Position numbers and translations under genes: made by a program. Positions 7,868 to 32,950 of a DNA stretch of 64,000 nt are shown here, piece by piece. The stretch is taken from positions 832,001-896,000 of the forward strand of contig CP147779.1 of the NCBI GenBank assembly GCA_037308085.1. The letters are read 5' to 3'. The notes beneath the pieces were generated by a model. It made no database searches, was not told the origin of the DNA, and saw only the letters and a list, made by a program, of their open reading frames with translations. Position 1 is the stretch's first letter, and the number at the start of each line of letters is the position of its first letter. Source of the DNA: Promethearchaeati archaeon SRVP18_Atabeyarchaeia-1. GTDB taxonomy: Archaea; Asgardarchaeota; Atabeyarchaeia; Atabeyarchaeales; Atabeyarchaeaceae.

Positions 7868-7894
7868 GCCAGATAAGAGTAGGTTACCCAGAAA

Positions 7895-10390: not shown

Positions 10391-10396
10391 CTTCTG

Positions 10397-11077: not shown

Positions 11078-11086
11078 CATCTGCGG

Positions 11087-12331: not shown

Positions 12332-12365
12332 ACGCGAGGTGCGGAACGGGTCGGTTGCTTTTCAG

Positions 12366-13403: not shown

Positions 13404-13440
13404 AGGTTGAAAACACTCCAGATCTAGAAACTGATTGCAA

Positions 13441-13668: not shown

Positions 13669-13885
13669 ATCATACGTCCCCCGATTTGAGATTTAGAAGT
13701 ACTGATCGTCCCGATCGGATAATAAAGGTACCTCACTTTCTCTTTTCCTTAAAAATCCTTGTCTTTCTGAACGGCCTGATCACTTGAGTTAAGCTCCTTC
13801 AAGTCGTGATCAAAGCCAGGGGGAAGCGGTGTACCTCAGAATACGGGCTGATGGAGTTCAGGTCAACCCGCCTCCAACGAGAGAT

Positions 13886-14464: not shown

Positions 14465-14733
14465 TGTCCCTTCTTCTCCTCTTGGGGTACTAGCCTTATT
14501 GCGCCCTTTGGGCAGACAGAGGTGCAAAGGTTGCAGAGAACGCACGCTGCCTGAAAGGGTGCGAATAGGAAGAACTCTTTGCTCAATGCATACTTCTTCA
14601 CTTTTGTGGGTATTGCCGCAAAAACCGCTTCTGGGCAGACTTGCATACATTTCTTGCACTCCATGGGATTTCTGCACTTCGAGGCGTCCACCTCAATCTT
14701 GACGCTTCCCAGCTTCTTCATTGGCCAGTTCAT
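14461..14733 (-). CDS. 2x[4Fe-4S] ferredoxin
   Basis: CRNPMECKKCMQVCP and CVLCNLCTSVCP. Confidence 0.88.
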   Translation of the reverse strand: MNWPMKKLGSVKIEVDASKCRNPMECKKCMQVCPEAVFAAIPTKVKKYALSKEFFLFAPFQAACVLCNLCTSVCPKGAIRLVPQEEKKGQ

Positions 14734-14748
14734 CCTCCAAGCCTCGAC

Positions 14749-18604: not shown

Positions 18605-18630
18605 CGGGAAGCCGTTTAGGAGGCCCATCC

Positions 18631-19594: not shown

Positions 19595-20563
19595 CTATTC
19601 AAATGACTTCTTCAGCAGTTCAACATCGACTCGGCCAGCATGGTACAGTTTGCCAGTCTTCAAGTCATTGATGGTTATCTCGGCGGGTGCAAAGAGTCCC
19701 GGGTCGATCTTGTAGAAATCATATCCCGCTGCTTTGAATGTCTGATGGAATGGCCTGCCGTAGTCTTTTGAAGACGATGATGGGACTTTGTTTATTATGT
19801 CTGAGAGATCTTCTTCCTCAGCTTCGACGGTCAGGTATACTCTTCCTGCTGCAAGTATCACGTCGTTTGTTCTGCCCATTGCCTTTGCGGAATTTGGATG
19901 GATCGGTGCTATCGGTGCTACTCCACACGCGTGCCTTATCTTCTTGGGATCAAAGCCGACCTCGGACAGCTTGTGTATCCCAGTTTCCACGACTCTGCCG
20001 GAAATCTGAACGGAACCAACAACAGAGCTGGTGGGCGCGACAATCACATAAAGATCCGAGTACGAAACAAGACACTTGCCTGCTATTGTTTCAACTATAT
20101 CGTTGTCGACGGTGTGGTCCGTCTCAATCACTATCACGGCCTGTTTTGCCTTATCTTCATAGGAGATTTTCTCGTAGATCTCCTTGGGTTCCAGAGATAG
20201 AGCTCTCGCAGGGCCCGAACCCATCCCGAAGATCTTCTTTTCCTTGTCCTTTATTCTCCACCCCGCAAACTGGGAACCCAGCGTGGCGATGGCTGGGTAG
20301 CCTGTCTCCACAAAGATTGAGGGCAGAATTAAGCCTCCGCCGTAGTCAATCATCGATAGACTTGCTGTTCCAAGTCCACCTAGACAAACCTCAGTCACAA
20401 ACCTCCCCGCATTGAAGCTTCCCTTCGCTTCTATACCGGCATCAAGCACGGTAGCTCCGTTTTCCGTTCTTGTTACCTTGATCCTTAACTCATCTGCATA
20501 CTCTATCATTTCCTGCACTATCGGTAGAGCGCTAGAGTTGACACTAACATCATTTTCCGCCAT
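19595..20563 (-). CDS. mch: Methenyl-H4MPT cyclohydrolase
   Basis: SVN, CLGGLG, LGSQFAGW, GSGPARAL, AMGRTND and DFYKIDPGLFAPA. Confidence 0.97.
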   Translation of the reverse strand: MAENDVSVNSSALPIVQEMIEYADELRIKVTRTENGATVLDAGIEAKGSFNAGRFVTEVCLGGLGTASLSMIDYGGGLILPSIFVETGYPAIATLGSQFAGWRIKDKEKKIFGMGSGPARALSLEPKEIYEKISYEDKAKQAVIVIETDHTVDNDIVETIAGKCLVSYSDLYVIVAPTSSVVGSVQISGRVVETGIHKLSEVGFDPKKIRHACGVAPIAPIHPNSAKAMGRTNDVILAAGRVYLTVEAEEEDLSDIINKVPSSSSKDYGRPFHQTFKAAGYDFYKIDPGLFAPAEITINDLKTGKLYHAGRVDVELLKKSFE

Positions 20564-20754
20564 AGAATGGTGGTCTCCTCAAGTTAAGCCAGTTCCTAGA
20601 TTCGCTTCAAACACAAGAAATACCTTTCCTTGGTACCATCCTATATGGCTTTGGTATCGCAGGGATGACACCAGAGCGGCGATGTAGCTTATAATCAGTG
20701 CGAGGCCGCGTCTGCCACAGACCAGAAAAAGTAGAGGCAAGCAAATACATGATC

Positions 20755-21555
20755 CTAGGCTTTCAGGTAGAGTTCCCCTTTTCCACCGTCTGCGAGGTCT
20801 CCGACGAACTTATTGAAGGGTCCACTTATCTCTTCGCCGTCTTCCTCGCTAGTCCTTGTGCTCGGGACTTTTCCTTCGCTCTTGAAAGATGGGAGTACTT
20901 CAGCGATTCTGCCTAGGATGATGATCTTTCCTTTGGTCATCTCTCCGCCGGCTCGAGGAGCAGCGTCTTTGTGTACTACTATGACTCCACCTTTCAGGTG
21001 TATGCCTGCCATGGCGCCGACGCTGCCTTTGACGACTATCGTGCCATTGGACATCCATGAACCGATCTCGTTTCCGGCGTTTCCCTCGACGAGTATGGTT
21101 CCTCCTGAGGTTCCTCTCCACTCTCCGCGGTACGAGGCGCCCAGGTAGCTTCCGGCGTTTCCTTTGATTGTAATCTCGCCGCCTTTCATCAACGCCCCAG
21201 CCCAGTCCCCCGCGTTTCCTTCGACGGTTATCTTGCCGCCTCTCATGTTGTTGCCTACGTGCATCCCAGCGCTTCCTTTAATTATGATTTCGCCGGCAGT
21301 CATGCCTTCGCCGACTCTCTTAACGGTAGGGATGTCTCCCTGTATGACTATGCGGATATCTTCTGGCTTGTCGACCTTTATTCCCTTAACGTCGAAAACA
21401 TCCTTGAGTTTGAGCTGCCTGTTTCCTCTGAATATAGTTAGACCTAGTATTTGTTCTACTGTTTTTCCAGCAACTTTGTCTGGGCTTATTACTTCAGCTT
21501 CGATAGGGACTTTGCTATTGATACTCTTGGGGACGAGAATGATTTCTTGGACCAC
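20755..21555 (-). CDS. fwdC: Formylmethanofuran dehydrogenase subunit C
   Basis: PIEAEVISPD, GNR and Gly-rich GxxMxGGxIxVxGNAG repeats, FVGDLA. Confidence 0.95.
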   Translation of the reverse strand: MVQEIILVPKSINSKVPIEAEVISPDKVAGKTVEQILGLTIFRGNRQLKLKDVFDVKGIKVDKPEDIRIVIQGDIPTVKRVGEGMTAGEIIIKGSAGMHVGNNMRGGKITVEGNAGDWAGALMKGGEITIKGNAGSYLGASYRGEWRGTSGGTILVEGNAGNEIGSWMSNGTIVVKGSVGAMAGIHLKGGVIVVHKDAAPRAGGEMTKGKIIILGRIAEVLPSFKSEGKVPSTRTSEEDGEEISGPFNKFVGDLADGGKGELYLKA

Positions 21556-21607
21556 GAGATTTCTTCCTCCATCGAGTAGAATTCGGCGCGATCTACTATA
21601 TTATCCC

Positions 21608-23335
21608 TTACTTCTTTAGTTCCATCTTCACAGGAGCTGGGTTGACTAGGTATTCATCCTGTACAGGGTAGTTCTGGAGGTTTACCGTGTAGTATTTCAT
21701 GAATTTGTCCTTAAGATCTTCGTATACTGCCTTTGTCCAGTCATCAGGAACCTCTATGTCGAGCCAGTGGGTTCTGCCAATTGGCGAAGCTACAACCTCA
21801 CCATCCTTGACTACGATCTGGCCACGAGCAATTGTGTATTTGGCGTTCTTGAAGGCTTTCTCGACGGCTTCAGGGTTCTGGGATGGATTAATCTTGACAG
21901 GATCTAGATCATAAATCGCTACATCAGCGTCGGCACCCACACCTAAGTGCCCCTTATTCTTCATTCCAACGGCCCTGGCGATCCCCGCTCTTGTGATTAT
22001 GGCGATTTCGGAGATGCTGTATTCTCGGTCATAGTTGGGTAGTGTTGTCTTCGATGTCGCCCGCTCGTGTACTTCCTTTAGCATGGCTTCCCTTTTTTTC
22101 TTGCTGACTAACCAAGATATAATGGTTGGATAACTCGTGAAAGGTCCACCATTGGGATGATCAGTCGTCAAGTACATCCTCCAAGGGTCTTTGACTCCTA
22201 GCGCGATTTCGAGTCCCACGGCCCACTGGATTGCGTTGACTCCGGTTCCTTTCTTAATATAGACATATGGGACTATTCCTGCACTTGTTTCGAGTTCAAC
22301 GTCTGCGTTAACCCATTTGAGCCCAGTCAGTTTGTGCAGGTTATACTCCATTGGTCCATCGGCTGTCATAGTTGTTGTGTCGCCGAAGACAACCTGCCCC
22401 ATATCGACTGTGACGTGCTTGTGAGCATTAACATAATTAACTAGTTCATCCGCTGCAGATGAGAAGGTTTTCCAGTCTTCCCCCGCGTAAGCGTGGAACT
22501 GGGCGTGAGTCAGGTGAATGACGGCATCTCTACCGTTCCCTGATGAGTGCGCTATACCCTCCACAGAATTGAGTGTGTCTAGGGTTACTTTGATGTTGCC
22601 AGGGTGACCCAGGTTATTGGGGTGGACATGGATGGTGTGAGGCAGACGTAGTCTCTCATTGACCTTTGCAAGATTTGTTATAACCTCTCTTGGGCTGATG
22701 TCGAAGTAGGGCACCCGATCATCTATTGTATCGCAGTTCTTTCCCCACTTCCAACTCTCAACTCCACCAGGGTTGACCATCTTAATGGCATATCCCTTGG
22801 TAGCTTTGAGCATCCAAGCCACGAAGGCAGTTAGTTTATCAAGATCCTTGTCTTTTATGTAGTCGATTACAAACCAGTTTCCTCCGAAAAGAGGATAGCA
22901 CGCCTTGTCGACAATAGGCATGTCATTAAACTCTTCGTGGACATGTCTTGCTTTTAGCGGTGGCACCGCGGGCTCGATGACAGTCGTCCAACCCATTCTG
23001 GCGTACCTGTAGCCTGTGGTGTAAGTGGAGGGAATTGAATAACCGACACCGGATCTCATGCCTTCTTTCTTGAACTCAAAATCCTTTCTGTGATCCTCAG
23101 GTCTCAGGAGTCTTCCAGCATCAACCTTTGGTCCCGCAATATGAGTGTGAACGTCTACTCCTCCAGGCATTACGATGCATCCACTCGCATCTATGACCTT
23201 AGAATCAGTCGCTTTGACATGAGTCTCATCGACGATCCTGCCATCCTTGATGCAAACAGTGATCTTCTCTCCGTCGGCATTGTTCGCTGGATCGTAAACA
23301 AGACCATTCTTGATTATTATGGCATTGTTCGGCAT
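21608..23335 (-). CDS. fwdA: Formylmethanofuran dehydrogenase subunit A
   Basis: GGVDVHTHIAG, HVHPNNLG, THAQF, TMTADGP and TTDHPNGGPF. Confidence 0.97.
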   Translation of the reverse strand: MPNNAIIIKNGLVYDPANNADGEKITVCIKDGRIVDETHVKATDSKVIDASGCIVMPGGVDVHTHIAGPKVDAGRLLRPEDHRKDFEFKKEGMRSGVGYSIPSTYTTGYRYARMGWTTVIEPAVPPLKARHVHEEFNDMPIVDKACYPLFGGNWFVIDYIKDKDLDKLTAFVAWMLKATKGYAIKMVNPGGVESWKWGKNCDTIDDRVPYFDISPREVITNLAKVNERLRLPHTIHVHPNNLGHPGNIKVTLDTLNSVEGIAHSSGNGRDAVIHLTHAQFHAYAGEDWKTFSSAADELVNYVNAHKHVTVDMGQVVFGDTTTMTADGPMEYNLHKLTGLKWVNADVELETSAGIVPYVYIKKGTGVNAIQWAVGLEIALGVKDPWRMYLTTDHPNGGPFTSYPTIISWLVSKKKREAMLKEVHERATSKTTLPNYDREYSISEIAIITRAGIARAVGMKNKGHLGVGADADVAIYDLDPVKINPSQNPEAVEKAFKNAKYTIARGQIVVKDGEVVASPIGRTHWLDIEVPDDWTKAVYEDLKDKFMKYYTVNLQNYPVQDEYLVNPAPVKMELKK

Positions 23336-23490
23336 GTGTCCAAGACCACCCTATGTACGGTCAGCTTTTCTAGAAGGAATCTTTTCTTAATTGATAAGGG
23401 TTATGCTGCACGCCATAATCATTGTGCGCATTCATCATGACGACTCAGGCGATAATCTGAATTATCAAAGTGATAAACTTTTGTCAACTC

Positions 23491-24699
23491 TTATGTTTTG
23501 CCTAGGATGACCTGACCTGACCTTTGTGAAGGCTGGTGTAGGGCAAGTCCTGGCTTGTACCCCGTGAGCTTGCCGAGTTCAGATGCAAATCCATAAAATA
23601 TCCTCGATAGCTGGATGCCCTTTGGGCAGTTTTCGTCGCACTTTCCACAGTTGACGCACGTATCTCCCATGTGTACTAGTCTTGTTGCATGCAAGAGTAG
23701 TGGGTCAATGGTTTTTATCTTCTTAAGAAGAATACAGTCCTTGCACCAGCAAACTGGGCAGGCACGTACACAGAGTCCGCATTTGGTACAGGGGTCGAGC
23801 ATTGCTTTCAATTGAGCGAACCGCTTGTTTCCTTCAAGTCTGGCAAGTTCCTCATTCTGTTCTTCAAGTCTTTTGTCGGCGCCCTTCTCCATGTCCCTAA
23901 TGACTGAGTCTTTCTGCTCCTTTTCTGAGACATCCGAACTGCTTAGAGAGATTAGCATTCCTTGGCTTTTTGCCAGCTTGATACTCGTAGCCCCCCTCTC
24001 TGTGACGGGTCTAATCAAGATGTTTGGGTTTGCCGAGGGGCTCCTGCGCCAAGCTGAGATGCTGATGTCGCACGTAGGTGGCTCACGATTGCCACATCTT
24101 GTGCAGCATTCCCGCAGTCTCACGTCCTTGCCAAGCTTCAGTGGTGCAATAGTCCCCGAAGTTGCTTTGACCGCTATTTCACTGGGTGTTATCTCACAAG
24201 ACTCGATTTTCGATTGATCTATTCCTTGTTTCTTTATAGCGTTGGCTAAGTCTAGGAAAGACACGCTTCCTGGACATTCCAGGCCGATAATGAATAGGTT
24301 CCCAAACGATACCTGATTTCTCTTCGACAGTTCGACAAGCGCCTCAATCTCGCAAGGACGCGCTACTAAGGCGACCTTTTTGTCGAAGCATCCACCAAGT
24401 TGAGAGTGAATAATCTTGGGAACGCTAAGTAGTCTTGGTAGCCCGACCACCAGATATTGTGAGAGGAGACGGTAGTCGAGGCTCGAGACATCAGAAGAGG
24501 CTTCAACTGAGACAGCCTGCATTCCGCCGCCTGGCTTCTTCTCGGTGAAGGTCAGAAATGCATCCACGATCCCACCATCCAGCAATGCTTTGTAGAGCGA
24601 CTTGATCGTGGTTTCCACTGGACGACCGCGGTTTTCGTCACTGATTCGGCATGTGATGTACGATCTGTCCTCACTCACCTTCACCAACTCCATATTCAA
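23491..24699 (-). CDS. FdhB/FrhB-family (F420-interacting type) Fe-S subunit
   Basis: KVALVARPCEIEALVELSKRNQV...NLFIIGLECPG, LRECCTRC, CTKCGLCVRACPVCWC and HMGDTCVNCGKCDENCP, as in methanogen FdhB. Confidence 0.85.
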   Translation of the reverse strand: MNMELVKVSEDRSYITCRISDENRGRPVETTIKSLYKALLDGGIVDAFLTFTEKKPGGGMQAVSVEASSDVSSLDYRLLSQYLVVGLPRLLSVPKIIHSQLGGCFDKKVALVARPCEIEALVELSKRNQVSFGNLFIIGLECPGSVSFLDLANAIKKQGIDQSKIESCEITPSEIAVKATSGTIAPLKLGKDVRLRECCTRCGNREPPTCDISISAWRRSPSANPNILIRPVTERGATSIKLAKSQGMLISLSSSDVSEKEQKDSVIRDMEKGADKRLEEQNEELARLEGNKRFAQLKAMLDPCTKCGLCVRACPVCWCKDCILLKKIKTIDPLLLHATRLVHMGDTCVNCGKCDENCPKGIQLSRIFYGFASELGKLTGYKPGLALHQPSQRSGQVILGKT

Positions 24700-24735
24700 A
24701 GTTCGTAATCATAATCATCGTAAGGTGTATTTGTC

Positions 24736-24816
24736 CCCGCCATACCCTGGCAAACAGGGTAAGTCCCATTCATGACACATCTCTGTTTACTCATGATGGT
24801 CATCCAGCTTGGCGGG
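24736..24816 (-). promoter_or_regulatory. Eukaryote-like (type II) SECIS element overlapping the mvhD 3' end
   Basis: RNA reads CCCGCCA AGCUGG AUGA C CAUCAUGA GU AA ACA-GAGA-UGU G UCAUG(A)AUG G GA CUU ACCCUG-UUUGC-CAGGGU A UGGCGGG. It shows the AUGA/GA core, 11 nt to AA, an apical mini-helix with a GNRA loop and a closing helix CCCGCCA/UGGCGGG. Confidence 0.75.
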
Positions 24817-25224
24817 TTCTGCCTTGAAGGGGTTCTGGCCCAAAGACCGGATTATCTCGACGGCTGTCTTGACCACTTCAGCGAATTTCTCTCCTTCTGC
24901 TGATGAGCAATTGTAGAACTGAGCTCTGTCTGCGCCGATTCCCATGAACCCGAGGATCTGCTGTACATGCTTGACTTGGTTCTTCGCGATAATGTTTCCC
25001 TTTTCGTATTCGCAGGTTCCTTCGTATCAGCCTACCACTAGAACGCCATCAGCGCCTTTCCTCAGTGCCCTGATAATCAGATCTCCGTCGACACGCCCGG
25101 CGCAGGGCACACGGATAGTTCTCACGTTCGATGGGTACTGTATTCTTCCGATCCCTGCTGTGTCAGCCGCGCCATACCCTCATTTCCAACAGAGGAACAT
25201 TGCTATCTTTGGTTCGAAAGCCAT
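24787..25224 (-). CDS. mvhD: MvhD/VhuD [2Fe-2S] subunit, selenoprotein (U15, U66); absent from the ORF track
   Basis: [48 protein letters not shown]...GADGVLVVG-UGA-YEGTCEYEKGN...CSSAEGEKF...GQNPF; UGA at 25180-25182 and 25027-25029. Confidence 0.95.
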
Positions 25225-25250
25225 TTTCACGCGACACCTCTTTCAGTCGA

Positions 25251-27215
25251 CTACTGATCTGCGAATAATGTGTCTATGTATGCTTCGTATTGCTCGTCCT
25301 TGTAGTGTCTAAGAGTAATTGCTGATGAGGGGCATACCGCTGCGCAGGCGCCGCATCCTCTGCAGTCCATTTCATTGACGACGGCAATCCTGTCTTTCAT
25401 GGTTATGGCTCCGTACGAGCATATCTCTGCGCATAGGCCGCATCCAGAGCATCTCTTGTCATCAGCGATCGCGCGTACCAGGGTGATTTCGACTTGCTTG
25501 TTGATCATGGGTGTTCCAGCAGATGAAGCGGCTCCTTTCGCTGTCCCAACCGCTTCGGGGATTGACTTGGGACCTTGGGCAACGCCTGCGATGTACACGC
25601 CAAGCTTCTTTGTATCGACTGGTGCGAGGCACAAGTGGAACTCCTTGACAAAGCCGTCTTTGGCTCGCTCGATCTTCAAAAGTCCTCTTAGGTCATCCTG
25701 CCTTGCAGGGGGAATCATTGCAGTCGAGAGAACCACCATGTCGGCCTCCGTTTCAGAGACTTCGCTAGTGAGAGTGTCTTCAACGGAGAGCAGAAGATTC
25801 TTCGTCAAGGGATCTTCAACAACTTCAGCTACCTTCCCTCGCACGAACCTCACGCCCGCGTTTCTGGTCTCTCTGTTATACTCCTCGTGGTCTCTGCAGG
25901 GGGTTCTGATGTCGATGTAGTAGATCGTGGGCTCAGTATCTGGGTAGTAGTGTTTGACGTATTTGGCGTTCTTGATGGCAGTCATGCAGCAGACTCCGGC
26001 AGAGCAGTACTGATTAGCATCCATGCTTCGTGATCCTACGCACTGTATCATGGCTATTCTTTTGGGGGTCATCAAATCTGAAGGGCGAACTAGCTTGCCG
26101 CCAGTTGGACCATTTGGCGCGGTTATCCGCTCAAGTTCGAGTTGTGTTATGACGTTCTCGTATTTTCCATAGCCGTACTCGCCAATTGGCTTGTACTCCC
26201 TGAACCCTGTGGCAAGCAGGATAACTCCAACGTCTATCTCAACGGTCTTTGGCGCCTGGTCCAGGTTGATGGCATTAGGCTCGCACTTCTTCATGCAAAG
26301 CCTGCACTTTATGCATCTATCCATGTCGATCGTGTAAGTACTCGGCACTGCTTGCGGGAATGGTAGGTAGATAGCCTTTCTTGTTCCAAGTCCTTCGTCG
26401 AACTCGTTCGGCGCGAAGATTGGGCAGACATCGACGCAAGCCCCGCACCCATTGCATTTCTCCCGTTCTACGTATCTCGGTTTTTGTCTGACTGTGACTT
26501 TGAAATCGCCGACATACCCCTCTACTTTCTCAACTTCGCTGTAACTGAGTAGCTCAATGTTATGGTGATGTGCCAGTTCCACCATCTTTGGACCTAAGAT
26601 TCAGATTGAGCAATCATCCGTCGGGTAAGTCTTATTCAGTTTTGCCATATGCCCACCGATGGAAGGTTCACGCTCAACCAGGCACACTTTCATTCCCTTG
26701 TCAGCCAAGTCTAGTGCGGCTTGAAGCCCAGCGACTCCGCCACCAACAACAAGTGCCTTCTGAAGCACTGGTACAATCTTTGTCGGGATGCTCTCAAGCA
26801 ATTTTGCTCGTTCGACTGCCGCCCTGATTAGCGCCTTGGCTTTGATCATTGCTTCTATGGGCTTGTCAGTGTGAACAAAGGTGCATTGCTCCCTGATGTT
26901 TACGAACTCCAAGTAGCTTGGATCTACGCCAGCTTCCTTGAGAATAGTGCGGAACAGTGGTTCGTGAGTCTTAGGGGTACATGCCGCGACTATAACCCTA
27001 TCCAGCTCGTACTCCTTGATCTTGGCCTTGATTAGGGAGGCGCCAGACTCGGTGCAGAGAGAGATATTCTGTGCCGCGATTTTCACTCCTTCCAGTTCAC
27101 CAGCATACTCAACGAGAGCAGAAGTATCAATGACGCCACCGATATTTACTCCTCAACGGCAGATGAAAACACCAATGCTAAAAGATGATTTAGGCTCTCC
27201 CGTTTGTTGACTCAC
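25251..27215 (-). CDS. hdrA: Heterodisulfide reductase subunit A, selenoprotein (U21, U205), 654 aa
   Basis: One frame from GTG 27215: IGVFICR-UGA-GVNIGG (27153-27155), VAACTPKTHE, NIREQC, VVGGGVAG, TYPTDDCSI-UGA-ILGPKM (26601-26603), IQCVGSR, CSAGVCC and C-terminal ferredoxin motifs. Confidence 0.95.
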
Positions 27216-27277
27216 CCCCTAGGCTCCATTGACGTGCTTCGCAGGTAGGTTCCCGCGGAGCTACTTCCAGATTCCTA

Positions 27278-27952
27278 CTATGAGGTCAATTTCGTCGTAA
27301 GCTTCTTGACGGTCTCATCCCAGAAATCAGTGTGTTCTCCAGACCAGGTGACTTCATCGCGTGTGAGCTCCAGTGCGCCCTCCCCTGGGCAGGCATTAAT
27401 GCATGCGCCGCAGAAAAGGCATTTCTTATCGTCGATTGACACTTTCTCTGTCTTCTCCCATGGCTTTGATGACTTCGGAATAGTGATTGCCTTGGTTGGG
27501 CAAATATCCGCGCAAGTTGAGCATCCGCCAGGGCACTTGTCGACGTGTATAGCGATTCTGCCCTTGAAGAACTTGCGTGCCTTATTCCCTGTTCTTTCAC
27601 AGGTAACCTCTTCGTACTTCAACTCAGGAACTGCCTTGCCGTCAACGATCTGAAGCTTCCTTTCGCCGTTTATCTTAAACTCGATTGCCTGAAATGGGCA
27701 GATATAATCACAGACACCGCAGAAAGAGCACTTCCTCTCGTCAACCAGAACTGGAGGTGACTGAACATCCTTTTTCATTGATGCTCCCACAGGACCTCTA
27801 GCAATGGCTTCCTTTGGGCAGGCGGTGACACAGACGCCACACCCGGTGCACTTCTCTCGATTAACGTTAAGCGAAAGCGTAATGTTTAGCATTCTAAGTG
27901 ATGCAGTAACTTTCGACGGATCAACGGTCCTTGTGTATTGGGGTAATGCCAT
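27278..27952 (-). CDS. fwdF: FwdF-like polyferredoxin (4 clusters)
   Basis: Four CxxCxxCxxxCP-type motifs, including CPGGCSTCADICP; fwd context. Confidence 0.75.
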   Translation of the reverse strand: MALPQYTRTVDPSKVTASLRMLNITLSLNVNREKCTGCGVCVTACPKEAIARGPVGASMKKDVQSPPVLVDERKCSFCGVCDYICPFQAIEFKINGERKLQIVDGKAVPELKYEEVTCERTGNKARKFFKGRIAIHVDKCPGGCSTCADICPTKAITIPKSSKPWEKTEKVSIDDKKCLFCGACINACPGEGALELTRDEVTWSGEHTDFWDETVKKLTTKLTS

Positions 27953-27971
27953 TACTTCACATCCTCCCTAC

Positions 27972-28229
27972 TCACTCTTTGGGCTTTTCGGGTTGTTGAG
28001 AGGGAAACCTGATCTCTAGTGCGTGGCGCGGGCATGCCTCGATGCACATTCCGCAGCCGTCACATAAATCTTGGTTTGTTACTCCGAGTTTGCCGTTCTT
28101 TACTCTCAACACCGCGTTTGATTCCTGTTCTGTAACTATCTTTCCAGTCTTGTTGACTGGGCATGCGATCGTGCAATCGCCGCAGCCGTTGCACTTTCTC
28201 TCAGAGATGGCTATTTGATAGGATGTCAA
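27972..28229 (-). CDS. fwdG: FwdG-like 2x[4Fe-4S] ferredoxin
   Basis: CNGCGDCTIACPVN...LRVKNG...CDGCGMCIEACP. Confidence 0.75.
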   Translation of the reverse strand: MTSYQIAISERKCNGCGDCTIACPVNKTGKIVTEQESNAVLRVKNGKLGVTNQDLCDGCGMCIEACPRHALEIRFPSQQPEKPKE

Positions 28230-28715
28230 TCAGGGGCGCCTCCGAGTTGACGCGATAATTCGCACTATCAATAGTGATTTGCGATTCCATTCATATGACG
28301 CTTCCAATAGGTAAGAAACCCTTCGATTGTTCTGCAAGTCTTGTCAGCGCAAGGTAAGCTATCTTTGTGACTTGATTTGGTTTTCGTCATTTTAAGGTTA
28401 ACTAAGAACTTTTCCATCACTCAATTCGGTTCAAGGGAAGCCATTATTCTTCAGATGTTGGAGGTATCGCATCGGCTTTTATACCTTTTTCAGGGGAATG
28501 AGTGTCATTCGTGCCGAGGTGAGAAGTGCGTCTTCTACTCTTGTCGTTCGCAAGTGGCAAGCTCTCGGGACCCGCCTACAAGCGCGTGATAGGAGACCGT
28601 CCAAGTCCTGCGGTGGCAACTGATGTAACAATCCTATGATACACTTTATTAAATCAATCAGTGGGCGAAAGTCATTTATAACAAGACTTCATCTTTTCGA
28701 TGCTGGTTTTATATT

Positions 28716-28991
28716 ATGTGTGGGGTTCTTGATATGGCTAATGATTCAGGTCCCGCTGTAAATACACAGCGATGTCAGGGATGCTCGAATTGCGTTATGG
28801 CTTGCCCAATCAATCAGAAGCTTGACAAGCGCATAATCGAGGGTGAATCACCCAGGTCTGATGACGTTGTGTTAAGGATCAAGAATGGCTCATGCACAGT
28901 CCTCAACAAGAAGCTCTGCCTTCAGAAGAGCTTTGAATGTAAGAGGTGCGAGCAAATCTGTCCGAGGGGCGCCATTCGGGTAATCGAGTGA
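28716..28991 (+). CDS. fwdG: Second FwdG-like ferredoxin
   Basis: CQGCSNCVMACPIN...LRIKNG...CKRCEQICP; start perhaps the ATG at 28734. Confidence 0.7.
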   Translation: MCGVLDMANDSGPAVNTQRCQGCSNCVMACPINQKLDKRIIEGESPRSDDVVLRIKNGSCTVLNKKLCLQKSFECKRCEQICPRGAIRVIE

Positions 28992-29055
28992 GTTTCTTAA
29001 TATACTAGTATAAGACGCTATAGATGCGAAGAGACGGAAAAGAGGGTTAGTCGGA

Positions 29056-29460
29056 TTGCCTGAGAAGTCGGTTGAGGTTGTCATAATAACTGGCAGAACG
29101 GTGGATCAAGGGGTTGCGATAGAGGGCGGTAAACTCTCGCAGTCCTATGTGAAGGCCGCTGCCATATGCTACATGGATCCAAACGACATGAAGAAGATAG
29201 GGGTCATAACTGGAGACATCATTACAGTCAAGACGAACGCCGGGCAGGTAATACTACGGGCTGTCAAGTCTGAAGATACGCCGCATGTCGGCCTTGTATT
29301 TATTCCCATGGGTCCGTGGGCTAACCAACTTACTAATCCGGAGACCGATAGTATAGGCATGCCATCATTCAAAGGTATGAAAGGCATAATAGAGGCAACC
29401 CAAGGTGGAAAGATACTGGACGCCGCCACACTAGTCAAGACCGCTTTCCACAAGGCGTGA
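29056..29460 (+). CDS. fwdD: Formylmethanofuran dehydrogenase subunit D
   Basis: ITGRTVDQG, VFIPMGPWAN and GMPSFKG. Confidence 0.95.
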   Translation: MPEKSVEVVIITGRTVDQGVAIEGGKLSQSYVKAAAICYMDPNDMKKIGVITGDIITVKTNAGQVILRAVKSEDTPHVGLVFIPMGPWANQLTNPETDSIGMPSFKGMKGIIEATQGGKILDAATLVKTAFHKA

Positions 29461-29489
29461 GTGGCATTAACACGAGGTGTAAGTGAGAT

Positions 29490-30806
29490 TTGTCACAAAA
29501 GGTAATCGACTCAGTCGTATGCCCGTTCTGCGGCTCTCTTTGCGACGATACGGAAGTTGTAGTCAAGGACGGCAGAATAATCGAAACCCGGAACATGTGC
29601 ATCATGGGAACTCAAAAGCTCTTCGCAAGTCAAGCACCCGAAAGAATCAGAAAACCGATGATACGGGAGAACGGTAGCTTCAAGGAGGTCACACTTGACC
29701 AAGCGATCCAGAGGGCTGCGGAGATACTGGTGAAGTCGGAGAGACCACTTCTTTATGGCTGGAGTTCAAGTGAATGTGATACCAGCAGGGTAGGTTTTGA
29801 GCTTGCTGAAGAGGTTGGCGCTATTATTGATTCGACTGCTTCGGTCTGCCATGGACCTTCCGTTCTCGCCATCCAAGATGTTGGTCTGAGCAGTTGTACT
29901 CTGGGCGAGGTGAAGAACCGAGCTGACCTTATAATATACTGGGGTTGCAATCCTCAACATGCTCACCCAAGACACATGAGCAGATACACTTCATTCGTGA
30001 GAGGTTTCTTCAGAGACAAGGGAGTAAAGGAACGGAGCATAGTTGTGGTAGACGTTCGCAGAACTGATACGGCGAAGCTAGCAACCCACTTTATCCAAAC
30101 CGAATATGACAAGGATTATGAATTACTGGGTGCCCTGAGAGCTGTAGTCAACGGCTATGACATTCTCACCGACAAAGTTGCGGGTGTTCCAAAAGAAAAG
30201 ATAATAGAGCTTGCTAGCATGATGAAGAACTGCGGGTTCGGCATAATCTTCTTTGGCATGGGGTTGACTCAGAGCACTGGGAAGCATAGGAACATAGATA
30301 ACGCGATACAGCTTACCACAGACCTCAACAAATACACAAAGTTCCTGATTATGCCGATGCGTGGTCACTACAACGTGACTGGCTTCGGCGTTGTCGCATC
30401 TTGGATCAGCGGGTACCCGTACGCTGTTGACTTCAGCAGGGGGTATCCGCGGTATAATCCAGGAGAGACAACGGCTAACGATGTCCTGCAGAAAGAGGAG
30501 ATTGATGCGGCGCTTGTCGTGGCATCGGACCCAGTTTCTCATTTTCCGAAGAAGTCGATCGAGTTCTTGGCAAAGATACCTTTGATAGTAATCGAACCAC
30601 ACCCGACTCCAACTACTGAACTTGCTGATGTCGTTATCCCTCCGGCGGTATCGGGAGTGGAAGTTGAGGGGACCGCGTACCGGATGGATAATGTTCCAAT
30701 TCGGCTGAGAAAAGTCGTCGACGCGCCAGACGGCCTCCTTCCAGACAGAGAACTAGTTCACAGAATACTCGAGAAGGTTCGGGAACTGAAGAAGAAGAGA
30801 ACCTAG
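29490..30806 (+). CDS. fwdB: Formylmethanofuran dehydrogenase subunit B (Mo/W, Cys ligand)
   Basis: CPFCGSLCDD, ASVCHGPS, HAHPRHMSRY, PMRGHYNV and GTAYRMD. Confidence 0.97.
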   Translation: MSQKVIDSVVCPFCGSLCDDTEVVVKDGRIIETRNMCIMGTQKLFASQAPERIRKPMIRENGSFKEVTLDQAIQRAAEILVKSERPLLYGWSSSECDTSRVGFELAEEVGAIIDSTASVCHGPSVLAIQDVGLSSCTLGEVKNRADLIIYWGCNPQHAHPRHMSRYTSFVRGFFRDKGVKERSIVVVDVRRTDTAKLATHFIQTEYDKDYELLGALRAVVNGYDILTDKVAGVPKEKIIELASMMKNCGFGIIFFGMGLTQSTGKHRNIDNAIQLTTDLNKYTKFLIMPMRGHYNVTGFGVVASWISGYPYAVDFSRGYPRYNPGETTANDVLQKEEIDAALVVASDPVSHFPKKSIEFLAKIPLIVIEPHPTPTTELADVVIPPAVSGVEVEGTAYRMDNVPIRLRKVVDAPDGLLPDRELVHRILEKVRELKKKRT

Positions 30807-31016: not shown

Positions 31017-31868
31017 ATGACAACGCTTGGCACAGAAAATATCGTGAAAATTGGTGTTTTGAAACTTGGGAACATTGGGATATCACCTCTGCTAGATCTA
31101 ATCTTGGATGAACGAGCAGACAGGGGGGACATTGATATCCGCGTTGTTGGGAGCGGGCCGAAGCTCACTCCAGAGCAAACTCAGGAAGCTGCACAGAAGC
31201 TAATTGAACTCCGCCCTAAGCTTGTCATCGTGTCGAGCCCAAATGCCAGTCTGCCTGGGCCAAGCAGGGCTAGAGAATTGCTGAACGAAGCCAAGATACC
31301 GACAATTTCGCTGAGTGATGCACCCGGGAAAAAGGCCACTAAAGATATCGAAGAGAAGGGTCAAGGCTACATAATACTGTTAGGCGACCCCCTGATTGGC
31401 GCGCGGAGAGAATTCCTGGACTCTACTGAGATGGCCCTATTCAACTCCGATGCCATCAGAGTACTTTCCATAACTGGCGCCATGCGACTAATAATGAGAG
31501 AAGTCGATAGCGTTGTTGAGCAGATCAAGCAGGGCAAGTCGATCCAGCTTCCAAAGGTAGTTGTGGACGGCAAAACAGTCGTCAATTCCGCTGAGTTCAA
31601 GAACCCCTATGCTCGCGCTAGGGCCATAGCGGCCTACGAGATGACTGGCAAAGTTGCGGAGCTGAATACCCAAGCATGCTTCATTCTCAAGGAACCTCAG
31701 GAATATATTCAGATGGCCACCGCGGCTCACGAGATGATGCGACAGGCAGCGATGCTAGCCGAGTCTGCGAGGGAGATGGAGAAATGTGGAGACTCAGTCT
31801 ACAGACAGCCACACAAACGTGACGGAACGCTCGTAAACAAGAAATCATTGATGGAGAAGCCCCAATAG
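31017..31868 (+). CDS. mtd: F420-dependent methylene-H4MPT dehydrogenase
   Basis: KLGNIG...LDERADR, GSGPK, IGARREFLD.EMALFN and AAHEMMR. Confidence 0.96.
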   Translation: MTTLGTENIVKIGVLKLGNIGISPLLDLILDERADRGDIDIRVVGSGPKLTPEQTQEAAQKLIELRPKLVIVSSPNASLPGPSRARELLNEAKIPTISLSDAPGKKATKDIEEKGQGYIILLGDPLIGARREFLDSTEMALFNSDAIRVLSITGAMRLIMREVDSVVEQIKQGKSIQLPKVVVDGKTVVNSAEFKNPYARARAIAAYEMTGKVAELNTQACFILKEPQEYIQMATAAHEMMRQAAMLAESAREMEKCGDSVYRQPHKRDGTLVNKKSLMEKPQ

Positions 31869-32038
31869 AATAGTGTTATATTCTCCGGATTAGTACAACG
31901 ATGTCCCATAGTTTTTTATGACGATGCACGTCTATACCGATGAACGAAATGGTCTGGAACCGGTACTATCGAATCGAAGTTAGAGAATGCGAAAAGGAGG
32001 TTCTGGTCCTTTTCATGTAATTGCTGGAGGAAATTTGT

Positions 32039-32950
32039 ATGTCGTTTCTGAAATTGGGTAAGTGCGAAGTTGAGGATACATATGCTGAAGCATTCGACAT
32101 ATGGGTTAGCCGGATACTTATCACGGCAAAGAATGAGAAGTGGGCTATTGAAGCAGCTAACTCGGCAATAGGTTTCGCGACATCCATAATCTTCTGCCCG
32201 GCAGAAGCTGGGATAGAGAAGATGGTGAGTCCGAAGGAAACGCCGGACAGCCGACCTGGAGTAATTATGCAGATTTGCCACCCCAGCAAGAAGAAGCTGG
32301 AAGAGCAGGTGCTGGAAAGGGTGACGCAGTGTATGCTAACTTGCCCAACGACAGCAGTGTTCAATGCCCTAACTGGAGGGGAACTCACATTCGACACGGG
32401 AAAGAAAACCAAGTTCTTCGGGGATGGCTTTGAGACTAAGGGTGATTTGGTTGGAAGAGCCATTTGGCATGTTCCAGTCATGGAAGGCGATTTTATAATA
32501 GAGGAGAACTTTGGAGCAAAGAAAGGCGTTGGCGGTGGAAACATGCTGATACTCGGGAGGACTCCAGATGCCGCTCTCGAGGCAGCCGAAGCCGCAATAA
32601 AAGCTATACACAAAGTAGAGGGAGTAATAACACCCTTCCCCGGGGGGATCTGCCGATCAGGCTCCAAGGTAGGATCGCTGAAGTACGCCAAGTTCCTCAA
32701 GGCGTCAACCAATCACCCCTTCTGTCCGACGCTTAGAGGCAAGACGCCTGACTTCAAACTTCCTGATGACGTCCAATCTGTTTATGAGATCGTAATGGAT
32801 GGGGTCTCAATAGAAAGCATAAAGAACGCGACAATTGCTGGGGTCAAGGCAGCATCATCTGTGAATAATGTAAAGCGAATAACAGCCGCAAACTACGGGG
32901 GAACATTGGGACCTCACAAGATATACTTGAAGGATGCTTTGAGCCAATAG
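32039..32950 (+). CDS. ftr: Formylmethanofuran:H4MPT formyltransferase
   Basis: EDTYAEAF, GFATSII.CPAEAG, FFGDG, PFPGGICRSGSK, STNHPFCPTL and NYGG.LG. Confidence 0.97.
   Translation: MSFLKLGKCEVEDTYAEAFDIWVSRILITAKNEKWAIEAANSAIGFATSIIFCPAEAGIEKMVSPKETPDSRPGVIMQICHPSKKKLEEQVLERVTQCMLTCPTTAVFNALTGGELTFDTGKKTKFFGDGFETKGDLVGRAIWHVPVMEGDFIIEENFGAKKGVGGGNMLILGRTPDAALEAAEAAIKAIHKVEGVITPFPGGICRSGSKVGSLKYAKFLKASTNHPFCPTLRGKTPDFKLPDDVQSVYEIVMDGVSIESIKNATIAGVKAASSVNNVKRITAANYGGTLGPHKIYLKDALSQ

What the first reader, a model, noticed from the sequence alone, without database searches (positions are those of the whole stretch)
19595..30806. HdrA-MvhD-FdhB-like module embedded in the Fwd cluster without HdrBC, MvhAG or FdhA
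Seen in the sequence: minus-strand fwdG-fwdF-hdrA-mvhD-FdhB-like-fwdA-fwdC-mch, divergent from fwdG-fwdD-fwdB-mtd-ftr. Established: in methanogens, FdhAB or MvhAG feed electrons through MvhD to HdrA, which bifurcates to HdrBC and, via polyferredoxin FwdF, to Fwd. Inference: this (apparently non-methanogenic) Asgard archaeon may build a dedicated Fwd-FwdF-HdrA-MvhD-FdhB-like complex linking CO2/formyl-MFR chemistry to F420, which Mtd also uses. Its high-potential branch would be unknown or supplied in trans, or the complex could run in the oxidative/confurcating direction.
Basis: partly seen in the sequence, partly recalled or inferred. Interest (0 to 1): 0.78.

Follow-up and report, generated by a model that had tools for sequence, protein, structure and literature searches.

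The report
Hdr–FdhB module inside Asgard Fwd cluster
A non-methanogenic Asgard archaeon (Atabeyarchaeia-1) encodes its only CO2-reducing formylmethanofuran dehydrogenase in one cluster with most of the electron-splitting machinery that methanogens bolt onto that enzyme, so a variant of the methanogen Hdr-Fwd supercomplex probably works outside methanogenesis, though its disulfide-reducing partner and its F420 site are unproven.

Summary
The gene order is real and is conserved in five Atabeyarchaeia-like lineages and one other Asgard family.

- The minus-strand "fwdG-fwdF" is a split FmdF-type polyferredoxin. Its best match is M. hungatei FmdF, the subunit that wires HdrA to Fmd.
- hdrA and mvhD each carry two in-frame UGA (selenocysteine) codons.
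- The FdhB-like protein is a full-length FdhB/ElpB homologue (E 1e-74). It keeps all iron-sulfur ligands but lacks the Gly-Gly loop that holds FAD.

**Genome inventory (closed genome)**
- Elsewhere: mvhAGD-hdrABC, two more hdrBC pairs (one orphan), and only a weak FdhA candidate.
- Absent: mcrA, Fno, cofG/cofH.
- Present: F420-dependent Mtd and Mer, CofD, CofE.

**Reading**
The closest known systems are Elp-Hdr-Fmd/Fwd (M. marburgensis, 2025) and Fdh-Hdr-Fmd (M. hungatei). My best reading (about 45%) is an F420-linked, HdrA-based bifurcating or confurcating Fwd complex whose CCG-type disulfide reductase is encoded in trans. The second Asgard family has an HdrD-like gene inside the cluster.

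**Rivals**
- A non-bifurcating Fwd:F420 wire.
- A flavin-less FdhB adaptor.
- Mere co-regulation.

I class it as a new variant of a known kind. The scan has already noted the same module in other Asgard genomes.

The parts
27972..28229 (-). 85-aa 2x[4Fe-4S] ferredoxin, the N-terminal piece of a split FmdF-type polyferredoxin
   Evidence: Best solved match is 7bkb_K (M. hungatei FmdF) residues 70-146, E 8.9e-20. Pfam Fer4 families. It lies 19 nt upstream of the next gene.
27278..27952 (-). 224-aa polyferredoxin with four CxxCxxCxxxCP-type motifs, the C-terminal piece of a split FmdF
   Evidence: 7bkb_K FmdF residues 162-368, E 1.7e-59, against 3.9e-38 for Class I FwdF 5t5i_F. NCBIfam FwdF 2.2e-39, below cut-off.
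25251..27215 (-). HdrA, 654 aa, GTG start, two selenocysteine codons (U21 in CR-U-G; U205 in DCSI-U)
   Evidence: Translation with TGA=U. Full-length alignment to solved HdrA: 9sfi_A 719 bits, 5odc_A 705 bits. U205 aligns with the Sec (X) of 9sfi_A. NCBIfam HdrA2 4e-227.
24787..25224 (-). MvhD/VhuD-type [2Fe-2S] subunit, 145 aa, two selenocysteine codons (U15, U66)
   Evidence: Pfam FlpD 3.9e-45. NCBIfam VhuD 9.8e-44. Both Sec positions are conserved in 7 Asgard families.
24725..24780 (-). Conserved 3'-UTR element with an [A/G]UGA core and a 5-bp hairpin; candidate shared SECIS for hdrA and mvhD
   Evidence: Conserved in 5 Atabeyarchaeia-like loci, with one compensatory pair. The fold alone is not significant, z -0.21. 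A shared SECIS downstream of vhuD is known in Asgard (PMC4989117, PMC11227280).
23491..24699 (-). FdhB/ElpB-like iron-sulfur (flavo?)protein, 402 aa, single copy in the genome
   Evidence: The profile hits solved FdhB 9t1s_M at 1.1e-74, 7bkb_E at 1.2e-73 and ElpB 8rvu_E at 8.4e-67, all full length. AF2 model pLDDT 86; TM 0.79 to 7bkb_E. All Cys/His of four [4Fe-4S] sites are kept, but the FAD GG loop is deleted.
21608..23335 (-). FwdA (amidohydrolase subunit)
   Evidence: TIGR03121 6.6e-253, above cut-off. Single copy.
20755..21555 (-). FwdC
   Evidence: TIGR03122 1.1e-84, above cut-off.
19595..20563 (-). Mch (methenyl-H4MPT cyclohydrolase)
   Evidence: Pfam MCH 1.2e-127.
28716..28991 (+). FwdG-like 2x[4Fe-4S] ferredoxin, 91 aa
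   Evidence: Best solved matches are 9sfi_U at 1.5e-11 and FwdG 5t5i_G at 1.3e-9.
29056..29460 (+). FwdD
   Evidence: NCBIfam FwdD 2.9e-38; Pfam Molydop_binding.
29490..30806 (+). FwdB (Cys type, molybdo/tungstopterin subunit)
   Evidence: TIGR03129 4.3e-191, above cut-off.
31017..31868 (+). Mtd, F420-dependent methylene-H4MPT dehydrogenase
   Evidence: NF002162, 392 bits against a cut-off of 297.
32021..32950 (+). Ftr, formylmethanofuran:H4MPT formyltransferase
   Evidence: TIGR03119, 410 bits against a cut-off of 292.6.

Best explanation
The cluster most likely encodes an Asgard variant of the methanogen Elp/Fdh-Hdr-Fmd(Fwd) supercomplex.

Proposed electron path:
1. The FdhB/ElpB-like subunit is the two-electron entry or exit site. 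It most likely reacts with F420/F420H2, the cofactor of the neighbouring Mtd and of Mer.
2. Its four [4Fe-4S] clusters pass electrons to the [2Fe-2S] cluster of the selenoprotein MvhD, and on to the bifurcating FAD of the selenoprotein HdrA.
3. The low-potential branch leaves HdrA through the split FmdF-type polyferredoxin (85 aa + 224 aa) and reaches FwdBD/FwdAC, which interconvert CO2 + methanofuran and formyl-methanofuran.
4. The high-potential branch needs a CCG-domain disulfide reductase (HdrBC or HdrD type). This is not in the cluster and would have to come from one of the hdrBC or HdrD-like genes elsewhere in the genome. The disulfide itself is unknown.

The complex could run forwards (F420H2 drives CO2 reduction) or backwards (formyl-MFR oxidation plus thiol oxidation reduce F420).

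Shown: gene identities, Sec codons, conserved synteny, and homology of each part to contacting subunits of solved complexes.

Inferred: physical assembly, F420 reactivity, the trans partner, and the direction.
For: - Gene identities.
- Full-length homology of the FdhB-like protein to FdhB/ElpB of solved Hdr complexes; fold TM 0.79 to 7bkb_E and 0.75 to 8rvu_E. All ligands of four FeS clusters are invariant.
- HdrA is a complete canonical four-domain HdrA.
- Both polyferredoxin pieces match best the M. hungatei FmdF that docks on HdrA.
- FwdABCD and the FdhB-like gene are single copy, so this is the cell's only Fwd.
- The order HdrA-MvhD-FdhB-like-FwdA-FwdC-Mch is conserved in 5 Atabeyarchaeia-like lineages with FdhB-like identity down to 57%.
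- A second Asgard family has the same cluster plus an in-cluster HdrD-like protein (Fer4_8 + 2 CCG) and a second HdrA-like gene.
- The genome has three hdrBC pairs, one of them orphan at 137.4-138.8 kb.
- F420-using Mtd and Mer, with CofD and CofE, are present. Fno is absent. No Frh- or Fpo-type F420 module was seen: the only other FrhB-family gene sits in a sugar-oxidoreductase context. That leaves this protein as the only candidate found here for an F420 coupling site.
- The Sec-type HdrA/MvhD pair is a distinct orthologous lineage that always sat beside the FdhB-like gene in the 7 families sampled. The three other HdrA/MvhD pairs of this genome are Cys type.
- Precedent: the Elp-Hdr-Fmd/Fwd complex performs F420H2-driven bifurcating CO2 reduction (PMC12350162).
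Against: - No hdrB/hdrC/hdrD within about 20 kb of the cluster in Atabeyarchaeia.
- No clear ortholog of the f28 HdrD-like protein in this genome; the best is 33% identity, shared by several paralogs.
- The GG dipeptide that wraps the FAD pyrophosphate in FrhB (24-QDGG, PMC3930138) and is present in FdhB/ElpB is a 2-residue deletion here. The second FAD loop is also changed, GSLHC to LSQYL with an insertion. FAD and hence F420 reactivity are therefore uncertain.
- No ElpA/FdhA partner in the cluster.
- FdhB-like presence does not track Mtd across Asgard families. f4, f6, f11, f12, f26 and f27 have Mtd but no FdhB-like. f19 has FdhB-like in 12/14 genomes but Mtd in 0/14.
- In situ transcripts of fwdA and fdhB were about 0-1 in the published metatranscriptomes.
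- The 155-nt and 191-nt gaps before fwdA and mch allow separate transcription units.
Confidence: 0.45

Rival explanations
1. HdrBC-independent, non-bifurcating wire. Fwd, the polyferredoxin, HdrA, MvhD and the FdhB-like protein form a plain electron path between formyl-MFR/CO2 and F420. The result is effectively an F420-reducing formylmethanofuran dehydrogenase working in the oxidative (methyl-oxidising) direction. This is functionally like FwdABCDG-FwdI of Ca. Ethanoperedens, but built from Hdr parts.
For: - No CCG protein in the Atabeyarchaeia cluster, nor next to the HdrA-MvhD-FdhB-like triad in families f13, f15, f16, f17 and f20.
- Downhill thermodynamics from about -530 mV to -340 mV (established values).
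- Precedent of an F420-reducing Fwd (PMC11493965).
- The same triad was proposed as a Fd:F420 oxidoreductase in Korarchaeia (PMC10667645).
- MtrH-family methyltransferase beside mch.
Against: - A complete bifurcating-type HdrA with all clusters is an expensive way to build a wire; Ethanoperedens needs only one FrhB-like subunit.
- Family f28 keeps an HdrD-like CCG protein in the cluster.
- The FAD loop problem applies here too.
Confidence: 0.2
2. The FdhB-like subunit has lost its flavin and does not react with F420. It is a four-cluster iron-sulfur adaptor that docks another donor or acceptor onto MvhD-HdrA. Candidates are the orphan 651-aa molybdopterin protein, a hydrogenase, ferredoxin, or Fwd itself.
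For: - Deletion of the FAD-pyrophosphate GG loop and an altered second FAD loop, while all FeS ligands are invariant.
- f19 genomes keep a related FdhB-like gene without Mtd.
- In f20 the same module sits beside an AOR-family tungsten enzyme instead of Fwd.
- An orphan molybdopterin enzyme with no redox partner lies at 2403.4 kb.
Against: - The N-terminal (flavin) domain is under strong purifying selection and is modelled with pLDDT >88. It carries a clade-specific conserved KKxGGGM loop that might replace the lost glycines.
- Every characterised FdhB/ElpB/FrhB binds FAD.
- f28 and Freyarchaeia homologues keep G-x-G or GGG at the site.
- No other F420-coupling enzyme was found in the genome.
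Confidence: 0.15
3. Co-regulation only. The HdrA-MvhD-FdhB-like(-polyferredoxin) unit is a free-standing oxidoreductase that merely shares an operon or island with Wood-Ljungdahl genes. Fwd uses soluble ferredoxin.
For: - In most Asgard families the triad is not next to fwd.
- The window is a general WLP island: mch, mtd, ftr, cdhA, MtrH-like.
- Intergenic gaps of 155 and 191 nt could hold promoters or terminators.
Against: - The hdr genes are interleaved between the polyferredoxin and fwdA/fwdC, not appended.
- The order is kept over deep divergence in two families.
- The polyferredoxin is of the FmdF type that contacts both HdrA and Fmd in M. hungatei.
Confidence: 0.1

Closest known systems
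Elp-Hdr-Fmd/Fwd supercomplex of Methanothermobacter marburgensis (ElpABC-HdrABC-MvhB-FwdABCDFG; PDB 8RVU; PMC12350162)
   Same: - An FdhB-type subunit without an active FdhA.
- An MvhD homologue, a canonical HdrA, a polyferredoxin link and Fwd.
- Proposed use of F420H2 rather than H2 or formate.
- The FdhB-like model superposes on ElpB, TM 0.75.
   Different: - No ElpA and no HdrBC in the cluster.
- No CoM-S-S-CoB-producing Mcr in the organism.
- HdrA and MvhD are double-Sec proteins.
- The FAD GG loop present in ElpB is deleted.
- The polyferredoxin is a split FmdF of the Class II type, not MvhB + FmdF.
- All genes lie in one cluster.
Fdh-Hdr-Fmd hexameric supercomplex of Methanospirillum hungatei (PDB 7BKB/7BKC)
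   Same: - It gives the best structural and sequence matches for the FdhB-like protein (7bkb_E) and for both polyferredoxin pieces (7bkb_K).
- FmdF docks directly on HdrA, without MvhB.
   Different: - No FdhA, so formate is not the donor.
- FmdF is split and lacks the first about 70 residues.
- HdrBC is not co-encoded.
- The organism is not a methanogen.
F420-reducing formylmethanofuran dehydrogenase FwdABCDG-FwdI of Ca. Ethanoperedens thermophilum (PDB 8RJA; PMC11493965)
   Same: Fwd is physically coupled to an FrhB-family module, linking formyl-MFR oxidation to F420 in a non-methanogenic C1 pathway.
   Different: - There FwdI replaces FwdF and no HdrA or MvhD is involved.
- FwdI is only distantly related to the window protein: E 7.9e-11, TM 0.49.
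HdrA-MvhD-FrhB/FdhB gene triads proposed in Korarchaeia (PMC10667645) and ANME-1 (PMC9012536); HdrABC-MvhD-FdhB-inactive Molybdop clusters (PMC12054007)
   Same: The same three-gene core without hydrogenase or active Fdh, proposed to couple ferredoxin or a disulfide to F420.
   Different: - Those clusters are not interleaved with fwd genes.
- None has been tested biochemically.
- The Asgard version is a Sec-containing lineage with a GG-less FdhB.
Class II benzoyl-CoA reductase BamB-I (tungsten AOR-family enzyme plus HdrA-like, MvhD-like and CCG-type subunits). Recalled from my own knowledge; not tested here.
   Same: A tungsten or molybdenum enzyme working below the ferredoxin potential is coupled to HdrA/MvhD-type bifurcation parts. 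In family f20 the Asgard module sits beside an AOR-family gene.
   Different: - Different catalytic subunit.
- NuoEFG-like input module instead of FdhB-like.
- Bacterial.

Membership tests
Elp/Fdh-Hdr-Fmd(Fwd) electron-bifurcating CO2-reducing supercomplex | Canonical four-domain HdrA with FAD site and all FeS ligands | tested here: met
   End-to-end alignment with solved HdrA: 9sfi_A 719 bits, 5odc_A 705 bits. Cys/Sec are present at the cluster motifs, and the GGGVAG FAD motif is present.
Elp/Fdh-Hdr-Fmd(Fwd) electron-bifurcating CO2-reducing supercomplex | MvhD/ElpC [2Fe-2S] connector encoded next to HdrA | tested here: met
   Pfam FlpD 3.9e-45. It lies 26 nt downstream of hdrA. The conserved Cys positions are occupied by Cys or Sec.
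Elp/Fdh-Hdr-Fmd(Fwd) electron-bifurcating CO2-reducing supercomplex | FdhB/ElpB subunit with four [4Fe-4S] clusters | tested here: met
   E 1e-74 to FdhB. C116, C142, C199, C202 and the 11 Cys + His343 of the C-terminal domain are conserved.
Elp/Fdh-Hdr-Fmd(Fwd) electron-bifurcating CO2-reducing supercomplex | FAD / F420 site in FdhB/ElpB (GG pyrophosphate loop, GS-x-H/Y loop) | tested here: not met
   The GG is a 2-residue deletion relative to ElpB, FdhB and FrhB, and the second loop is altered. Whether FAD still binds was not testable.
Elp/Fdh-Hdr-Fmd(Fwd) electron-bifurcating CO2-reducing supercomplex | HdrBC (CCG non-cubane clusters) as high-potential branch | tested here: inconclusive
   Absent from the cluster. 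Three hdrBC pairs and several HdrD-like genes lie elsewhere. It is present inside the cluster in family f28. Partnership is untested.
Elp/Fdh-Hdr-Fmd(Fwd) electron-bifurcating CO2-reducing supercomplex | FdhA or ElpA partner of the B subunit | tested here: not met
   None in the cluster. The only other molybdopterin protein (651 aa, 2403.4 kb) scores 265 bits against a cut-off of 666 for Fdh-alpha and has no redox neighbours.
Elp/Fdh-Hdr-Fmd(Fwd) electron-bifurcating CO2-reducing supercomplex | FmdF/MvhB polyferredoxin linking HdrA to Fmd/Fwd | tested here: met
   The two adjacent genes match FmdF 7bkb_K residues 70-146 and 162-368. This is homology only; the contact itself is untested.
Elp/Fdh-Hdr-Fmd(Fwd) electron-bifurcating CO2-reducing supercomplex | FwdABCD(G) catalytic core | tested here: met
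   TIGR03121, TIGR03122 and TIGR03129 are above cut-off. FwdD and FwdG-like are present.
Elp/Fdh-Hdr-Fmd(Fwd) electron-bifurcating CO2-reducing supercomplex | Physical supercomplex and coupled activity | not testable with these tools
   No multimer prediction or biochemistry was available.
F420-reducing Fwd (FwdABCDG-FwdI type) | FrhB-type F420 reductase replaces FwdF and binds FwdG/B directly | tested here: not met
   An FmdF-type polyferredoxin is retained, and HdrA-MvhD lie between it and the FdhB-like gene. FwdI (8rja_E) is only a distant relative.
Asgard Sec-type HdrA-VhuD pair with shared SECIS (Mariotti 2016) | Multi-Sec HdrA followed closely by a two-Sec VhuD, with a single SECIS-like element downstream of VhuD | tested here: met
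   Four TGA codons at conserved Cys sites, a 26-nt spacer, and a conserved [A/G]UGA hairpin element after mvhD. The exact SECIS pairing was not resolved.

The most novel reading that the evidence does not exclude
Asgard archaea possess a portable selenoprotein module: polyferredoxin, Sec-HdrA, Sec-MvhD and a GG-less FdhB-like protein. It works without classical HdrBC and plugs onto different very-low-potential tungsten or molybdenum enzymes, Fwd in Atabeyarchaeia and family f28, an AOR-family enzyme in f20. This would be a heterodisulfide-independent or new-acceptor form of HdrA bifurcation or confurcation. It could also be the evolutionary source of the FmdF-HdrA architecture later transferred to Class II methanogens.
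Probability: 0.2. Interest if true: 0.85.

Novelty: new variant of a known kind. Interest (0 to 1): 0.6.

Why it matters
If the complex exists, flavin-based bifurcation wired directly into CO2 fixation is not a methanogen speciality. It would also operate in acetogenic or methylotrophic Asgard archaea, the closest prokaryotic relatives of eukaryotes, with an unknown disulfide instead of CoM-S-S-CoB.

- It would explain how these cells supply or dispose of the roughly -530 mV electrons of the formyl-MFR step.
- It would explain how they connect their F420 pool (Mtd, Mer) to the rest of metabolism without Frh, Fno or Fpo.
- It fits the recent claim that the FmdF of Class II methanogens came from Asgard or Bathyarchaeia by gene transfer (PMC13580544).
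- It gives a concrete cluster for AF3 modelling and for complexome work on enrichment cultures.

The published genome paper lists the genes but does not discuss the cluster.

Tried and rejected
- **The look-up of encoding contigs:** I surveyed synteny with the genome search, the fetch from genomes and tblastn instead.
- **Rfam scan of the window:** no family at gathering score.
- **SECIS structure:** the single-sequence fold of the mvhD 3' UTR is not better than shuffles, z -0.21. RNAalifold gave only 8 pairs with one compensatory change. I report a conserved candidate element, not a solved SECIS.
- **Co-occurrence of FdhB-like with F420-dependent Mtd:** this does not hold across 400 Asgard genomes and I dropped it as support for an F420 role.
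- **Trans partner:** using the f28 HdrD-like protein as query gave several about 33% paralogs and no clear ortholog.
- **FdhA in trans:** the 651-aa molybdopterin protein is only weakly Fdh-like and has no redox neighbours.
- **Second FrhB-family gene:** the 528-aa protein at 170.4 kb sits beside a GFO/IDH/MocA oxidoreductase and a peptidase. I did not pursue it as an F420 hub.
- **F420 contact residues:** the papers held name only the FAD loops in text, so mapping was not possible.
- **Operon boundaries:** no decisive promoter or terminator signal in the 155-nt and 191-nt gaps.
- The search of protein representatives and the second structure job, because neither gives context or multimers.

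Full report
**Where and what**

The window is positions 832,001-896,000 of a closed 2,808,651-bp genome. Its nearest named relative is Ca. Atabeyarchaeum deiterrae Atabeyarchaeia-2. The supplementary gene table of Valentin-Alvarado et al. 2024 identifies the genome as SRVP18 Atabeya_1, with gene 886 = fwdA, 887 = fdhB (K00125), 889 = hdrA2 and 895 = fwdB. That paper discusses HdrABC, hydrogenases and the H4MPT Wood-Ljungdahl pathway. It never mentions FdhB, F420 or this cluster in the main text.

**Checking the observation**

Three corrections matter.

- *Selenocysteine codons.* hdrA and mvhD appear fragmented under table 11. Each has two in-frame TGA codons at positions that are Cys in homologues. 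HdrA (27215-25251, GTG start, 654 aa) has U21 in the N-terminal C-R-U-G motif and U205 in D-C-S-I-U. MvhD (25224-24787, 145 aa) has U15 and U66. U205 aligns with the selenocysteine (X) of the solved HdrA 9sfi_A. Multi-Sec HdrA followed by two-Sec VhuD with one shared SECIS is already known for Asgard archaea (PMC4989117; PMC11227280).
- *Polyferredoxin.* The two ferredoxin genes upstream of hdrA are not fwdG + fwdF. The 85-aa protein matches M. hungatei FmdF (7bkb_K) residues 70-146. The 224-aa protein matches residues 162-368 at E 1.7e-59, far better than Class I FwdF. They are a split FmdF of the type that docks directly on HdrA in the Fdh-Hdr-Fmd complex. The plus-strand 91-aa protein is the FwdG-like one.
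- *Extent.* mtd and ftr lie beyond the stated end coordinate.

**The FdhB-like protein**

A profile of this protein and its close relatives hits the solved F420-dependent FdhB subunits at full length: 9t1s_M 1.1e-74, 7bkb_E 1.2e-73. It also hits ElpB of the Elp-Hdr complex (8rvu_E, 8.4e-67). FrhB, Fsr and FwdI score only about 1e-10. An AlphaFold2 model (pLDDT 86, pTM 0.89) superposes best on 7bkb_E (TM 0.79) and 8rvu_E (TM 0.75).

All ligands for four [4Fe-4S] clusters are invariant or nearly so. However, the Gly-Gly that wraps the FAD pyrophosphate in FrhB (24-QDGG; PMC3930138), and that reads GGAVT in FdhB/ElpB, is a two-residue deletion in the Atabeyarchaeia proteins. The next FAD loop is also altered. 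The N-terminal domain is nevertheless strongly conserved and confidently modelled, with a clade-specific KKxGGGM loop. FAD and F420 binding is therefore uncertain rather than excluded.

**Genome inventory**

| Item | Result |
|---|---|
| FwdABCD, FdhB-like | Single copy |
| HdrA/MvhD pairs or fusions | Four further ones |
| mvhAGD-hdrABC | Canonical cluster at 920.8-927.3 kb |
| Multi-hdrA cluster | At 1815-1825 kb, with hdrCB and a [NiFe] hydrogenase |
| HdrA-MvhD fusion | 809 aa, beside a GltD-like protein and a 2-oxoacid:ferredoxin oxidoreductase |
| Orphan hdrCB pair | At 137.4-138.8 kb among purine genes |
| CCG-domain proteins | About 13 in total |
| Other molybdopterin protein | Weak Fdh-alpha match, 265 vs 666 bits, no redox neighbours |
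| mcrA, Fno, cofG | No match |
| cofH | Only a weak radical-SAM match, 25 bits |
| Mtd, Mer, CofD, three CofE copies | Present above cut-off |
| Other FrhB-family gene | One only, in a sugar-oxidoreductase context |

The cell therefore uses F420, probably from salvaged FO. The FdhB-like protein is the only F420-coupling candidate I found.

**Synteny**

The order HdrA-MvhD-FdhB-like-FwdA-FwdC-Mch recurs in four further places:
- Atabeyarchaeia-2 (61% FdhB-like identity);
- a same-genus MAG (74%);
- two metagenome contigs (57-58%).

Across 400 Asgard genomes, homologues of the FdhB-like protein occur in 181. In a sample of 20 loci the HdrA-MvhD-FdhB-like triad is conserved in seven families. Fwd linkage occurs only in Atabeyarchaeia and in family f28.

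The f28 cluster reads: ferredoxin, polyferredoxin, HdrA(Sec), MvhD(Sec), FdhB-like, HdrD-like (Fer4_8 + two CCG domains), a second HdrA-like gene, FwdA. FwdD-FwdB are divergent. There the FdhB-like protein keeps a G-x-G at the FAD loop.

Other arrangements:
- In f20 the triad is followed by a polyferredoxin and preceded by an AOR-family gene.
- In f31 a canonical GGAVT-type FdhB lies with MvhD and an FdhA-like gene.
- In f19 the FdhB-like gene stands alone.

All four Sec positions, with signature motifs, are conserved in every triad-type pair. The three other HdrA/MvhD pairs of this genome are Cys type. The triad is therefore a distinct, old orthologous module.

**How it most likely works**

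Each part is homologous to a subunit that contacts its neighbour in solved supercomplexes. I therefore favour an Asgard variant of the Elp/Fdh-Hdr-Fmd machine, at about 45%. The path is F420(H2) at the FdhB-like subunit, then MvhD, then the HdrA flavin. The low-potential branch runs through the split FmdF to Fwd. The high-potential branch runs to a CCG-type disulfide reductase encoded elsewhere.

The Elp-Hdr-Fmd/Fwd complex of M. marburgensis shows that F420H2-driven bifurcating CO2 reduction exists (PMC12350162). The f28 cluster shows that a CCG protein belongs to the module in a relative. The direction is open. The cell has no other evident source of F420H2 than Mer and Mtd running oxidatively or this module running backwards. 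A confurcating or oxidative mode is therefore as plausible as the reductive one.

**Rivals**

- *Plain Fwd:F420 wire without bifurcation, about 20%.* Precedent in function: FwdABCDG-FwdI of Ca. Ethanoperedens (PMC11493965). The Korarchaeia triad proposal points the same way (PMC10667645).
- *Flavin-less FdhB-like adaptor for another partner, about 15%.* Supported by the missing GG loop and by the mismatch between FdhB-like and Mtd distributions.
- *Co-regulation without a complex, about 10%.*

None can be excluded without multimer modelling or biochemistry.

**Novelty and prior notes**

All part types and the overall logic are known from:
- Fdh-Hdr-Fmd (2021) and Elp-Hdr-Fmd (2025);
- ANME and Korarchaeia gene-cluster proposals;
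- the Asgard selenoproteome.

What I did not find described is the interleaving of a Sec-type HdrA-MvhD-FdhB-like module with fwd genes in non-methanogenic Asgard archaea, combined with no HdrBC, no ElpA/FdhA and a GG-less FdhB.

A 2026 paper infers that Class II methanogen FmdF came from Asgard or Bathyarchaeia (PMC13580544). That makes this cluster evolutionarily relevant.

Earlier notes of this scan on other genomes describe the same module: an Atabeyarchaeia-like genome, the HdrD-containing version, and a Lokiarchaeon version beside AOR. I read them after reaching the same points independently. They agree with this report and are not independent evidence.

Noticed in passing
whole genome (G000): cofG/cofH searches; CofD at 968,975-969,886; CofE at 534,009, 625,947 and 1,890,831; Mer at 905,347-906,315: The closed genome has F420-dependent Mtd and Mer, CofD and three CofE copies. 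It has no FO synthase: cofG gave no match and cofH only a 25-bit radical-SAM hit. It also has no Fno. The deazaflavin head group may be salvaged from neighbours such as methanogens.
   Followed up: partly
G000:C1:1,213,343-1,220,073 (L082): An 809-aa HdrA-MvhD fusion (Cys type) lies between a GltD/NfnB-like protein (Fer4_8 + Pyr_redox_2) and three 2-oxoacid:ferredoxin oxidoreductase subunits. This is a second unusual HdrA context in the same genome.
   Followed up: partly
G000:C1:137,371-138,829 (L085): Orphan hdrC-hdrB pair (183 aa Fer4_8; 299 aa with two CCG domains) among purL/purQ and a peptidase gene, with no hdrA nearby. It is a candidate trans partner for HdrA proteins that lack their own HdrBC.
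   Followed up: partly
L060 (G307:C6) 5,916-15,390 and L059 (G308:C98): A second Asgard family (f28) has the Fwd-embedded module plus an in-cluster HdrD-like protein (388 aa, Fer4_8 + 2 CCG) and a 517-aa HdrA-like protein that lacks the N-terminal domain.
   Followed up: yes
L065 3,605-11,699 and L067 2,786-11,536 (family f20): AOR-family tungsten enzyme gene, about 2 kb, then HdrA(Sec)-MvhD(Sec)-FdhB-like-polyferredoxin. The same module is paired with a different very-low-potential enzyme.
   Followed up: partly
L068, L070, L071, L072 (family f19, including closed 4.36-Mb and 6.04-Mb genomes): The FdhB-like gene stands alone, without HdrA/MvhD. It has lost the Cys equivalent to C142 of the FrhB-type cluster. 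The family has no Mtd (0/14 genomes), so this paralogue probably has an F420-independent role.
   Followed up: partly
window 24725-24780 (-): Conserved element directly after the mvhD stop codon: GUC-[A/G]UGA, then a 5-bp hairpin with an A-rich loop, then GGCGG-R-R-A. It is shared by five Atabeyarchaeia-like loci. It is the likely shared SECIS for four UGA codons spread over about 2.4 kb.
   Followed up: partly
window 15768-16841 (-): 357-aa ORF with weak TnpB / Cas12f-like matches (NCBIfam guided_TnpB 4.9e-11, below cut-off), a few kb from the C1 cluster.
   Followed up: no
window 17273-19542 (+): A LarA-family nickel-pincer racemase homologue and an MtrH/MtgA-family methyltransferase lie immediately downstream of mch, convergent with it. 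This hints that methyl groups enter the H4MPT pathway here.
   Followed up: no
window 14749-15564 (-): 271-aa protein whose C-terminus resembles the C-terminal ferredoxin domain of HdrA (E about 1e-10). Function unknown.
   Followed up: no
G000:C1:2,403,377-2,405,332 (L079): Stand-alone 651-aa molybdopterin oxidoreductase (Fe4S4 + Molybdopterin + Molydop_binding domains; weak Fdh-alpha match). It is flanked by TPR, DUF1646, radical-SAM, GH3 and MFS genes, with no electron-transfer partner nearby.
   Followed up: partly
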